A stretch of 64,000 bases of DNA from Escherichia coli (GTDB taxonomy: Bacteria > Pseudomonadota > Gammaproteobacteria > Enterobacterales > Enterobacteriaceae): NCBI RefSeq assembly GCF_041886205.1, contig NZ_CP169029.1, one strand, 5' to 3'. Shown here in pieces: positions 39,901-41,613 of the stretch. Made by a program: the position numbers. How positions within the stretch are numbered: the stretch's first letter is position 1; each line of letters starts with the position of its first letter.

Positions 39901-41613
39901 CATATACTACTGTGGAGAAAACCAGTTTAAAACGGTACAGGTGCCGCAGCCCCGAAGCCTGAAGGTGTTTAGCTGTAATGGTAACCCGTGGGACAAAGAC
40001 AATTTACCGACGCTGCTCAAAGCCGTCGAGGGCCTGAAAAACCAGGAGGGCCTGGAGGACCTTTTAGACTTTTTGCGCAAGGAAGGCCTGGTTGACCTGG
40101 AAGGACTGGAGAAGCTGGAGGATCTGGATGACCTTATGGATCTGGAGCTCCTGGATGACCCGGTACTCCTGGAGCGCGTGAAGGTACAGGAGGACCTGGA
40201 GCTCCTGGATCAACAGTTGGGCCTGTTGAGTCTGGAAAGACAACAGGACTCGCAGCCTGTTAATCAACAATCTGAACATGAACCCGAATCTGCATCAAGG
40301 GTAAAGCGTGATTTATCTGAAGTCGAGTTCGAGTCAACAATGAAGCGTAAGCGTTTTATGTAGAACGCCTGTGCGGTGAGTTCAGGTTCCGGGGAAATAG
40401 TGTCCATCCTTTTAATGGACACTATCATGGGCAATGGCTCTGTCACATTAACAACTACAGTTGCTGACCAGCCGGATGGATGATTTTTTTGCACCCAGAA
40501 GACGTTGCCTCCGATCCGGCTTACAACAAGTTACACCGTCACAACCGGGACGCGTAGCGCCAGCGCGCACATCAACTCATAGCCCACCGTTCCGGCAGCG
40601 GCGGCGACATCATCAATTTTGATCTCCTTGCCCCACAGCTCAACCGGCGTACCAATACCCGCCTGCGGGCAAGGCGTTAAATCGACCGCTAGCATATCCA
40701 TCGAGACGGTTCCCACCGTCATGGTGCGCACGCCGTCCACTAAAACAGGGGTACCGGTAGGCGCGTGGCGCGGATAACCGTCGGCGTACCCTGCGGCGAC
40801 AATGCCGATTCGCTGTTCATCGCGCGCAGTATAGCGACCGCCGTAGCCCACACGCTCGCCCGCTTTTAGCGTCTGGACACCAATAATCTCACTGCTTAGC
40901 GTCATCACCGGACGTAATCCGGTATTGGCGATATCACGCCACTGACCGGACGGCGAAGCGCCATACAAAATAATGCCAGGCCGAACCCAGTCAAAATGCG
41001 CTTCCGGGTGCCACAGAGTCGCCGCCGAATTGGACAACGAACGCCGACACTCCAGCCCCTCCGCCGCCTGCTCAATACGCGCCATCGCGCCGGAAATTCC
41101 ATCAGGATGTTCCGCTTCGGCAAAATGCGACATCAGGGTCATTTCGCCAACATTCGCCATTGCCCGCAACTGCTGCCAGACGGTAAGCACGCGATCGGGC
41201 TGGAAGCCCAACCGATTCATCCCACTGTTCACTTTAAGATAAATATCCAACGGTGCTTTTAGCCGCGCATTTTGCAGTGCTTTGAGCTGCCAGTTGCTGT
41301 GTACGCAGGTGGTCAGGCGGTGCTGGTCATAAATTTCCAGATCCTGAGCATGGAAAAATCCTTCCAGCATCAGGATCGGTCCTTTCCAGCCGCGCTCACG
41401 TAACGTTATTGCCTCTTCCAGGTTAAGCAATGCAAAGCCATCGGTGGCCCCGAGCGCGCTCCAGATACGCTCAATACCATGCCCGTAAGCGTTCGCTTTT
41501 ACCACCGACCAGACGCGCGCGTGCGGCGCGGCCTGGCGGACAATGGACAGATTCTGTTTTAATGCCTGCAGATCGAGGCTGGCCTGTATCGGACGGGTCA
41601 TCTCGTTTCCTTA

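What the first reader, a model, noticed from the sequence alone, without database searches (positions are those of the whole stretch)
40399..40423. Perfect 9-bp stem palindrome immediately downstream of the LRR gene
AGTGTCCAT-cctttta-ATGGACACT lies 35 bp after the LRR stop codon and before the dadX 3' end. It has no T-run, so it is not a classic intrinsic terminator; it might mark the right boundary of the inserted segment or act as an RNA stability element.
Basis: seen in the sequence. Interest (0 to 1): 0.2.

Follow-up and report, generated by a model that had tools for sequence, protein, structure and literature searches.

The report
Fossil end of IS66 insertion sequence
The palindrome is the conserved hairpin-like repeat from the left end of an IS66-family jumping gene that landed on the end of the E. 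coli LRR gene, was later mostly deleted, and now survives as a roughly 90-bp scar in about 79% of E. coli genomes, including K-12.

Summary

It is not a feature that belongs to the LRR gene. Window 40347-~40436 is the left end of an IS66-family insertion sequence:
- the tip is 5'-GTAAGCG;
- a 50-nt terminal region follows;
- the palindrome comes next;
- the last few bases correspond to the tnpA start.

The rest of the element (tnpA, tnpB, tnpC and the right end) is missing. The last five codons and the stop codon of the LRR gene lie inside the IS tip.

Intact IS66 elements carry the same palindrome at the same distance from the tip, directly 5' of tnpA and never at the right end. They include over 80 copies in Pantoea stewartii, E. 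coli plasmid and chromosome copies, and alphaproteobacterial elements.

Distribution in E. coli:
- The scar is in 4296 of 5426 genomes.
- Only 837 genomes have the LRR gene; K-12-type strains are internal deletions that kept the scar.
- About 21% of genomes, and Salmonella and Citrobacter, have a compact spacer without it.

So the palindrome sits in a mobile-element scar at the island's right margin, but it is not the junction itself.

In active elements the repeat is most likely a tnpA control or recognition site. Here it is a fossil, and it is still an insertion hot spot for a 1420-bp IS3-family element.

The parts
40397..40425 (.). Perfect 11-7-11 palindrome ATAGTGTCCAT-cctttta-ATGGACACTAT. 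It is the subterminal inverted repeat of an IS66-family left end.
   Evidence: establish the palindrome. The same arms sit at the same distance from the tip in intact IS66 elements.
40347..40396 (+). IS66-family terminal region (IRL): tip 5'-GTAAGCGTT and 50 nt up to the palindrome.
   Evidence: An nhmmer profile of 11 IS66 left ends, with the palindrome excluded, hits 40347-40393 at E=3.3e-5; it is the only significant hit in 64 kb. BLAST of the P. stewartii IS end matches this locus at ~81%, E 1e-10 to 3e-12. Alignment A4 is gap-free through the arms.
40347..40436 (+). Whole IS66-family left-end relic: tip, IRL, palindrome and the vestige of the tnpA start (ATCATGGG(C/A)AA against ATCG(T/C)GTGAAA). 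The tnpA, tnpB and tnpC genes and the right end are missing.
   Evidence: the best match is the Pantoea dispersa left end, 73 of 89 positions. BLAST homology ends at query position 81-89, which is just after the palindrome.
37614..38533 (+). LRR gene, 5' part, interrupted by an IS3-family element.
   Evidence: Intact alleles of 478-479 aa occur in L002, L006 and L007.
38534..39843 (+). IS3-family insertion sequence (IS629/IS1203-like, ~1310 bp; orfA 38588-38914, orfB 38911-39801) that splits the LRR gene.
   Evidence: One search gives annotations of identical copies elsewhere. One search gives Pfam HTH_Tnp_1 and rve.
39844..40363 (+). LRR gene, 3' part. Its last 17 nt (40347-40363, codons ..R K R F M stop) are IS66 tip sequence.
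   Evidence: All 46 full-length alleles end in STMKRKRFM or STMKRKHFM.
40470..40521 (.). REP-like hairpin AGCCGGAT-N36-ATCCGGCT next to the dadX stop codon. It is probably backbone sequence.
   Evidence: A Citrobacter-like outgroup (L233) has AGCCGGAT-N22-ATCCGGCT at the same place.
37029..40524 (.). Segment with no counterpart in the compact (B2-type) cvrA-dadX allele: the 'island' (IS1414-like remnant, LRR gene, IS66 relic). The true right edge lies somewhere between 40437 and 40524.
   Evidence: Local alignments to L010 show left homology up to 37028 and right homology from 40525. Outgroup spacers are 64-106 bp.
37045..37143 (.). IS1414-like fragment with the start of a small ORF (37114-37275, MDDKPLQALANE..). 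It is inverted here relative to the K-12-type allele, where it is annotated 'IS1414 (partial)' and ymgM.
35258..36994 (+). cvrA (backbone, left flank).
40531..41601 (-). dadX (backbone, right flank).

Best explanation
Window 40347-~40436 is a truncated left end of an IS66-family insertion sequence, and the palindrome is that end's conserved subterminal inverted repeat.

History (inferred from the alleles). An IS66-type element inserted at the 3' end of the LRR gene, in the same orientation as the gene, and replaced the gene's last codons and stop. A later deletion removed tnpA, tnpB, tnpC and the right end, starting a few bases after the palindrome. The scar then spread with the island. It survived a second, larger deletion that removed the LRR gene in K-12-type strains.

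Mechanism in active elements (inferred, not shown). The two arms are copies of a motif, (A/G)TGGAC(A/T/G)C, placed ~50 nt from the tip and directly 5' of the tnpA start codon. A -10-like hexamer (TATAAT, TTTAAT or GATAAT) spans the loop and the first two bases of the right arm.
- Most likely (about 55%): it is a DNA site read by an element-encoded protein, with the HTH protein TnpA as first candidate. The site would control tnpABC expression or mark the left end.
- Next (about 30%, and not exclusive of the first): in transcripts that enter from outside, the two arms pair and hide the tnpA start. This would resemble the left-end hairpins of IS200.

In this window the repeat has no transposition role. 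Its present effects are by-products:
- it gives the LRR mRNA a 3' hairpin;
- it remains a preferred insertion target of a 1420-bp IS3-family element.
For: Shown:
1. A genome-wide pattern scan found the palindrome ~50 nt inside the tip of a high-copy element in P. stewartii (84 contig ends). It also found it in Pantoea, Erwinia, Mixta and Enterobacter and in five alphaproteobacterial loci.
2. That element is IS66-family. Its tip is GTAAGCG, its tnpA, tnpB and tnpC are annotated, and Pfam TnpB_IS66 hits tnpB. The literature reports 101 IS66 copies in P. stewartii DC283 (PMC5603701).
3. The E. coli locus aligns to these ends from the tip through the palindrome. BLAST gives ~81% identity, E down to 3e-12. 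The IRL-only profile gives E=3.3e-5. Alignment A4 is gap-free, and the tip-to-palindrome distance is 50 nt in both.
4. The LRR stop codon lies inside the tip, and all alleles end in KRKRFM or KRKHFM.
5. Allele survey: the relic spacer is in 4296 of 5426 genomes and single copy, and the LRR gene is in 837. A compact allele without the relic is in ~21%. Outgroup spacers are 64-106 bp without it.
6. The arms are nearly invariant across elements whose TnpA is 51-100% identical, and are identical in GC-rich alphaproteobacterial elements whose flanks cannot be aligned. One position swaps G-C to A-T.
7. Distant subgroups change both arms together (GAGTCC/GGACTC), or carry the motif as direct repeats. 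The loop length varies from 7 to 11 nt.
8. The three intact right ends inspected (L132, L133, L134) lack the motif.
9. The IS3-family element sits in or next to this motif at 10 of 10 sites inspected. Three of them are in this relic, in both orientations.
Against: - No experiment or paper on this repeat was found in the searchable library, so its function in IS66 is inferred from sequence only.
- No right end, no tnp genes and no 8-bp target duplication can be shown at this locus; membership rests on ~90 bp.
- Evidence for pairing is thin. Eight of 11 pairs never vary and only one covaries. This fits a protein site but proves neither model.
- A consensus sigma-70 scan finds no promoter at the IS left ends.
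- Yersinia carries the same 11-7-11 palindrome without a recognisable IS66 tip.
- Window 40437-40469 remains unexplained.
Confidence: 0.85

Rival explanations
1. The hairpin evolved as, or is kept as, a 3'-UTR element of the LRR gene: a terminator without a U-tract, or a barrier to 3'-5' exonucleases that stabilises the mRNA.
For: A stable hairpin (-14.3 kcal/mol) lies 35 nt after the stop. The two stem substitutions seen in E. coli (CE10 C>T, strain 100248 A>G) both keep G.U pairing on the + strand; with n=2 this has a chance probability of 0.25.
Against: The sequence is inherited from an IS66 end, where it lies upstream of a gene rather than downstream. About 3,460 genomes keep it without an LRR gene. 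No U-tract is present and the terminator scan has no hit. No Rfam family matches. At most this could be a side effect.
Confidence: 0.06
2. The palindrome is itself the recombination or attachment site, or the terminal repeat, that delimits the inserted island.
For: It lies within 45-100 bp of the island's right edge and is absent from empty-site alleles and outgroups. Its 11-7-11 layout recalls core-type recombinase sites; this is a resemblance from memory only.
Against: Homology to the compact allele resumes at 40525, not at the palindrome. No copy, or near copy with up to 3 mismatches, exists at the left edge or anywhere else in the window. No integrase gene is in the island. The K-12-type deletion endpoint lies ~105 bp to its left, inside the LRR ORF.
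Confidence: 0.04
3. It is a backbone element that serves the convergent genes: a bidirectional transcription stop or RNA barrier for dadAX and cvrA, like the neighbouring REP-like hairpin.
For: It lies between convergent genes. The minus-strand hairpin is strong (-17.4 kcal/mol, z -6.1) and is followed by UUU. It is present in most E. coli.
Against: It is absent from ~21% of E. coli and from the Salmonella and Citrobacter spacers, which use REP-type hairpins instead. It is homologous to a mobile-element end. The K-12 spacer has been used as an insertion site for an extra replication origin, and the strain was reported to grow faster (PMC9769844).
Confidence: 0.04
4. It is a chance palindrome with no history or function.
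For: Perfect short hairpins are common in intergenic DNA; there are 5 in this window.
Against: The expected number is 0.13 per window. The flanking 50 nt is independently homologous to IS66 ends. The same sequence occurs at more than 100 IS66 ends.
Confidence: 0.01

Closest known systems
IS66 family of insertion sequences (tnpA-tnpB-tnpC elements with 5'-GTAAGCG termini; for example the E. coli copies annotated 'IS66-like element' and the high-copy P. stewartii element)
   Same: The tip sequence, the 50-nt terminal region, the position and sequence of the subterminal palindrome, and the vestige of the tnpA start all match.
   Different: Only ~90 bp remain. There is no tnpA, tnpB or tnpC, no right end and no demonstrable 8-bp target duplication. 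The loop is 7 nt, against 8-11 nt in the intact copies seen.
IS200 left-end inverted repeats (one acts as a bidirectional terminator against impinging transcription, the other sequesters the tnpA Shine-Dalgarno sequence; PMC4513863)
   Same: Both are left-end-specific inverted repeats placed just before the transposase gene start. In IS200 they keep transposase expression low and insulated from outside promoters.
   Different: The IS family and transposase chemistry are unrelated. The IS66 repeat is conserved as sequence, and in some subgroups it occurs as direct repeats. That points to protein recognition rather than pure RNA structure. No experiments exist for IS66.
REP/BIME elements and the IS3-family elements that insert into their loops (IS1397, ISKpn1; PMC1525189)
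   Same: Each is a small extragenic palindrome used as a specific target by an IS3-family element that inserts at the loop centre with a 3-5 bp duplication.
   Different: The palindrome here is single copy in E. coli apart from IS66 copies. It is AT-richer and does not match the GCCGGATG...ATCCGGC REP core. The targeting element is a different, unnamed 1420-bp IS.
Rho-independent terminator
   Same: It is a stable stem-loop downstream of an ORF, between convergent genes.
   Different: Only 4 of the 11 stem pairs are G-C. There is no U-tract on the + strand and only UUU on the - strand. The scan did not detect it.

Membership tests
IS66-family insertion sequence (left end) | Terminal sequence 5'-GTAAGCG at the element tip | tested here: met
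   GTAAGCG is at 40347-40353. In intact copies the flanks diverge exactly outside this heptamer.
IS66-family insertion sequence (left end) | Homology of the terminal inverted-repeat region | tested here: met
   The nhmmer IRL profile gives E=3.3e-5 at 40347-40393. BLAST gives ~81% identity, E 1e-10 to 3e-12.
IS66-family insertion sequence (left end) | Subterminal repeat of the (A/G)TGGACNC motif ~50 nt from the tip, directly 5' of tnpA (a feature defined here, not taken from the literature) | tested here: met
   The palindrome starts 50 nt from the tip, as in 13 distinct intact left ends and further ends.
IS66-family insertion sequence (complete element) | tnpA, tnpB and tnpC genes | tested here: not met
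   No such ORFs lie between 40436 and dadX. Homology ends ~10 nt after the palindrome. It is therefore a relic, not an element.
IS66-family insertion sequence (complete element) | Matching right inverted repeat | tested here: not met
   A 28-nt IR profile finds nothing on the minus strand near 40437-40524. The GCTTAC at 40519-40524 fits the REP tail better.
IS66-family insertion sequence (complete element) | 8-bp target-site duplication | tested here: inconclusive
   The left flank AATGAAGC (40339-40346) has no second copy downstream, and the right end is lost. The 8-bp GCCGGATG at 37016-23 and 40471-78 are REP cores, not IS-adjacent.
Intrinsic (Rho-independent) terminator | G+C-rich stem followed by a U-tract | tested here: not met
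   The scan of 36800-40800 lists no site here. Four of the 11 stem pairs are G-C, and there is no T-run on the + strand.
REP/BIME | Multi-copy extragenic palindrome with the GCCGGATG...ATCCGGC-type consensus | tested here: not met
   It is single copy per genome, unique in the window, and its sequence is unrelated. The neighbouring hairpin at 40470-40521 does fit the consensus.
Known RNA families (Rfam 15) | Covariance-model match | tested here: not met
   Only two sub-threshold chance hits (E 0.86 and 3.1) fall in 40200-40650, and neither overlaps the palindrome.

The most novel reading that the evidence does not exclude
The pair of (A/G)TGGACNC repeats between the left tip and tnpA is an undescribed cis element of the IS66 family, conserved from Alpha- to Gammaproteobacteria. 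It would act as an operator or left-end recognition site for an element-encoded protein. It is also the specific landing site of a 1420-bp IS3-family element. That element would then act as a parasite of IS66 copies and of their fossils, including the relic that sits in most E. coli chromosomes.
Probability: 0.5. Interest if true: 0.55.

Novelty: new member of a known kind. Interest (0 to 1): 0.35.

Why it matters
- **E. coli annotation.** About 90 bp between dadX and cvrA (K-12 1,240,044-1,240,133) is an unannotated IS66 scar. The K-12 'intergenic' state is a deletion remnant of an LRR islet, not an ancestral spacer.
- **The LRR (putative effector-like) gene.** Every known allele ends in IS-derived codons, so its native C-terminus is unknown and may have been lost.
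- **Transposon biology.** The IS66 family has almost no biochemistry. A repeat kept identical across bacterial classes at one end only is a concrete handle for studying how tnpABC expression or end recognition works. An IS that inserts specifically into it gives an in-vivo read-out.

Tried and rejected
- **Intrinsic terminator.** The scan is negative at the site.
- **Known RNA family.** Rfam has no match.
- **Repeat family within the window or genome.** It is unique in the window and single copy per E. coli genome.
- **MITE-like IS66 derivative with both ends** (right tip at 40524, suggested by GCTTAC). The IR profile gives no hit there, and the REP-like reading is favoured by outgroup L233.
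- **Origin of 40429-40526 in another mobile element.** BLAST against plasmids returns only records whose size or 'non-mobilizable' typing suggests chromosomal sequence.
- **dif/Xer-like 11-N-11 site.** Considered from memory; the arms show no sequence resemblance, so it was not pursued.
- **Consensus sigma-70 promoter at IS66 left ends.** None found with 16-18 nt spacers. Candidates need a 15-16 nt spacer, as in L217 (TTGACA-N15-TATAAT).
- **RNA covariation.** Only 1 of 11 pairs covaries within the close subgroup.
- **Longer LRR homologues that would show the pre-insertion C-terminus.** None found; the family is restricted to E. coli and Shigella.
- **Literature on an IS66 left-end palindrome.** Nothing in the held library. 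The reviews by Mahillon & Chandler, Han et al. 2001 and Gourbeyre et al. 2010 are not held.
- **Context of the Yersinia copies.** Uninformative.
- **About 25 hits in unrelated phyla.** These match the ~22 chance matches I estimate for the 18-base pattern in 298 Gb (298e9 x 5 gap lengths / 4^18; hits).

Full report
**Observation.** The reported sequence is present as described. The perfect complementarity is 11 bp per arm, ATAGTGTCCAT (40397-40407) and ATGGACACTAT (40415-40425), around a 7-nt loop. It starts 33-35 nt after the TAG of the LRR ORF (40361-40363) and lies 105 nt from the dadX stop (40531-40533, minus strand). No T-run follows on the + strand, and the terminator scan lists nothing here. 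The predicted RNA hairpin is -14.3 kcal/mol on the + strand and -17.4 on the - strand. Perfect hairpins of this size are expected 0.13 times per shuffled window. The window has five. The pattern is unique in the window even with three mismatches.

**Context.** The window is E. coli. cvrA (35258-36994, +) and dadX (40531-41601, -) converge on a 3.5-kb insert. The insert holds four things:
- an IS1414-like fragment with a small ORF;
- an LRR gene (37614-40363), split here by an IS629/IS1203-like IS3-family element (38534-39843);
- the palindrome;
- a REP-like hairpin (40470-40521) next to dadX.

The closest complete genome found is O7:K1 CE10, at 98.2% identity.

**Three alleles.** A survey of 5,426 complete E. 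coli genomes gives three states.
- Island with the LRR gene: 837 genomes. Intact 478-479-aa alleles occur in L002, L006 and L007.
- K-12-type 385-bp spacer: it lacks the gene but keeps the last ~70 bp of the LRR ORF, the palindrome, the REP-like hairpin and an inverted IS1414 fragment with ymgM.
- Compact 56-bp spacer with one hairpin, CGCTGGAT-N14-ATCCAGCG, and no palindrome: about 21% of genomes.

The 107-bp stretch around the palindrome is in 4,296 genomes and is single copy. In MG1655 the palindrome is at 1,240,055-1,240,083 and is unannotated. Outgroups have 64-106-bp dadX-cvrA spacers without the palindrome: Salmonella, Citrobacter koseri and a third enterobacterium with 89% DadX identity. 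The compact state is therefore ancestral-like, the island is an insertion, and the K-12 state is an internal deletion of it. Against the compact allele, homology holds up to 37028 and resumes at 40525. One outgroup has AGCCGGAT-N22-ATCCGGCT right after dadX, so the REP-like hairpin is probably backbone. The island's right edge then lies between 40437 and 40524.

**What the palindrome is.** An exact-pattern scan of 100,044 species genomes for AGTGTCCAT-N5..9-ATGGACACT returned 84 contig ends of Pantoea stewartii CCUG 26359. It also returned single copies in Pantoea, Erwinia, Mixta and Enterobacter and in five alphaproteobacterial loci. About 25 further hits are scattered across unrelated phyla. 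That is the number I estimate by chance for this pattern (298e9 x 5 / 4^18, about 22).

In P. stewartii the palindrome lies 50 nt inside the tip (GTAAGCGTC...) of an element that encodes three proteins:
- a 207-aa HTH protein;
- an IS66-type TnpB;
- an IS66 transposase.

P. stewartii DC283 is reported to carry 101 IS66-family copies (PMC5603701).

The window reads GTAAGCGTT at 40347, followed by 50 nt that align without gaps to these left ends, then the palindrome. Three independent tests support the homology:
- BLAST of the P. stewartii end hits the dadX locus of thousands of E. coli at ~81% identity, E 1e-10 to 3e-12. The match stops just after the palindrome.
- A profile of eleven IS66 left ends that excludes the palindrome finds 40347-40393 at E=3.3e-5, the only significant hit in the window.
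- The best single match is a Pantoea dispersa left end, 73 of 89 positions.

After the palindrome, the alleles read ATCATGGG(C/A)AA against ATCG(T/C)GTGAAA in the elements. Homology then ends. No tnp genes, right inverted repeat or target duplication can be found. The feature is a ~90-bp left-end relic.

**Consequence for the LRR gene.** The tip starts inside codon R474. The last residues (R)KRFM and the stop codon are IS sequence. All 46 full-length alleles in the protein database end in ...STMKRKRFM, or KRKHFM in one. The family is confined to E. coli and Shigella, with no longer relatives. The insertion therefore predates the diversification of all known alleles, and the original C-terminus is unknown.

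**The palindrome in active IS66 elements.** Thirteen distinct intact left ends were compared, with TnpA identity to the P. stewartii protein from 51 to 100%.
- All have the repeat at the same distance from the tip, ending 3-4 nt before the conserved tnpA start (MKHRTW or MKYRT).
- N-terminal 'MSIIFNGHYR' extensions in some annotated TnpA proteins are simply the palindrome translated.
- The arms are almost invariant. Eight of 11 pairs never change, and one swaps G-C to A-T with A.C intermediates.
- The loop varies from 7 to 11 nt and is T-rich. Together with the first two bases of the right arm it forms TATAAT, TTTAAT or GATAAT.
- Alphaproteobacterial elements have exactly the same 11-bp arms in GC-rich flanks that cannot be aligned, 13 nt before the SD-GTG of a 115-aa TnpA.
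- More distant subgroups change both arms together (GATAGAGTCC...GGACTCTATC), or carry the motif as direct repeats: GTGGACACC-N6-GGTGGACGC, or ATGGACAC twice plus one GTGGACA.
- The three intact right ends inspected lack the motif.

Conservation as sequence, tolerance of spacing changes, the occurrence of direct repeats and restriction to the left end together favour a site read by an element-encoded protein. The site would control tnpABC or mark the left end. A role as an RNA hairpin that hides the tnpA start in read-through transcripts is the main alternative and could coexist with it. IS200 uses left-end inverted repeats in that way (PMC4513863). None of this has been tested, and I found no description of the repeat in the searchable literature.

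**Present-day role at this locus.** The relic cannot transpose. Among nine E. coli alleles, the stem has two independent transitions, and the loop has several variants (cctttta, tctttta, cattgta, and catttta reconstructed across the IS insertion in strain 100248). This is consistent with a slowly decaying scar. A side effect on LRR or dadX transcript 3' ends is possible but untested.

One effect is documented. A 1420-bp IS3-family element (ends TGAACTGCGCCCC...) sits in the loop of this relic in at least three genomes and in both orientations (L005, L226, L224). It sits in the loops or arms of IS66 copies in five more. It is also found once in an unrelated GTGTCCA-N11-TGGACAC repeat and once next to a half motif. 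That makes 10 of 10 sites inspected. This resembles the targeting of REP loops by IS1397 and ISKpn1 (PMC1525189).

'Not a classic terminator' is right. 'Marks the right boundary' is partly right: the palindrome is part of a mobile-element scar at the right margin of the island, but it is not the junction. The proposed refutation test misleads, because most LRR-less strains are deletion derivatives. 'RNA stability element' is unsupported as an origin and untested as a side effect.

**Novelty and interest.** The feature is an unannotated relic of a known IS family, which is ordinary in kind. The wider by-products are of moderate interest to transposon specialists and need experiments. They are a repeat at IS66 left ends conserved across bacterial classes, and an IS that targets it.

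Noticed in passing
L005:84-1503; also L222-L230 (E. 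coli genomes); target in window 40408-40414: A 1420-bp IS3-family element (ends TGAACTGCGCCCC...GGGGCGCAGTTCA, present in 322 of 5426 genomes) was found in or beside the GTGTCCA(T)-loop-(A)TGGACAC motif at 10 of 10 sites inspected. Three are in the dadX-locus relic (both orientations), five are in IS66 copies, one is in a look-alike repeat in a DMT transporter gene, and one is beside a half motif in dcuC. It looks like a palindrome-loop-specific IS.
   Followed up: partly
window 37045-37143 vs L001:636-745 / K-12 1,240,188-1,240,289: The IS1414-like fragment that carries the start of a small ORF (ymgM in K-12) is inverted between island-bearing and K-12-type alleles. It is bounded by short inverted repeats (gagcctgYaat / attgcaggctc). 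In K-12 it abuts the LRR 3' remnant, which suggests an IS-mediated inversion plus deletion removed the LRR gene.
   Followed up: partly
window 40347-40363: The LRR ORF's last five codons and stop are IS66 tip sequence. All 46 full-length alleles share this ending, so the gene's native C-terminus is unknown. NCBIfam shows similarity only to the LRR domains of SlrP and SspH2, with no NEL domain.
   Followed up: partly
window 38534-39843: An IS629/IS1203-like IS3-family element interrupts the LRR gene. In only 18 of 5426 genomes does a single match cover at least 80% of the 36900-40650 query, which suggests few share this insertion.
   Followed up: no
L100:1540, L113, L114, L115, L118 (Alphaproteobacteria): IS66 elements of Rhodobacteraceae-type genomes have exactly the same 11-bp arms (ATAGTGTCCAT / ATGGACACTAT), with GC-rich loops and flanks that cannot be aligned to the enterobacterial elements. 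That is unusually deep sequence conservation for a non-coding IS feature.
   Followed up: partly
L110:5184-5210 (Yersinia pestis), L104:1034 (Y. similis): The same 11-7-11 palindrome occurs without a recognisable IS66 tip, ~130 bp downstream of a 247-aa ORF. It may be a relic or an independent site.
   Followed up: partly
P0007, P0022, P0063 (annotated TnpA proteins): The N-terminal extension MSIIFNGHYR in database TnpA entries is the palindrome translated in frame when the loop is 8 nt. These are probably mis-called start codons.
   Followed up: partly
L011:2780-3040 (E. coli AVS0754): The compact cvrA-dadX spacer and both gene 3' ends appear inverted, which gives cvrA and dadX novel C-termini (WP_432706229.1, WP_432706228.1).
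   Followed up: no
window 37016-37023 and 40471-40478: The 8-bp GCCGGATG (REP core) occurs as a direct repeat near both edges of the island. It could reflect insertion into or between REP units, or recombination between them that generated the compact allele.
   Followed up: partly
window 7674-7699 and 8210-8235; 18214-18241; 20663-20688; 56215-56240; 61279-61305: Other perfect hairpins in the window, including an identical pair GGCCGCAGGGGTAACAGCCTGCGGCC 536 bp apart. They were not examined.
   Followed up: no
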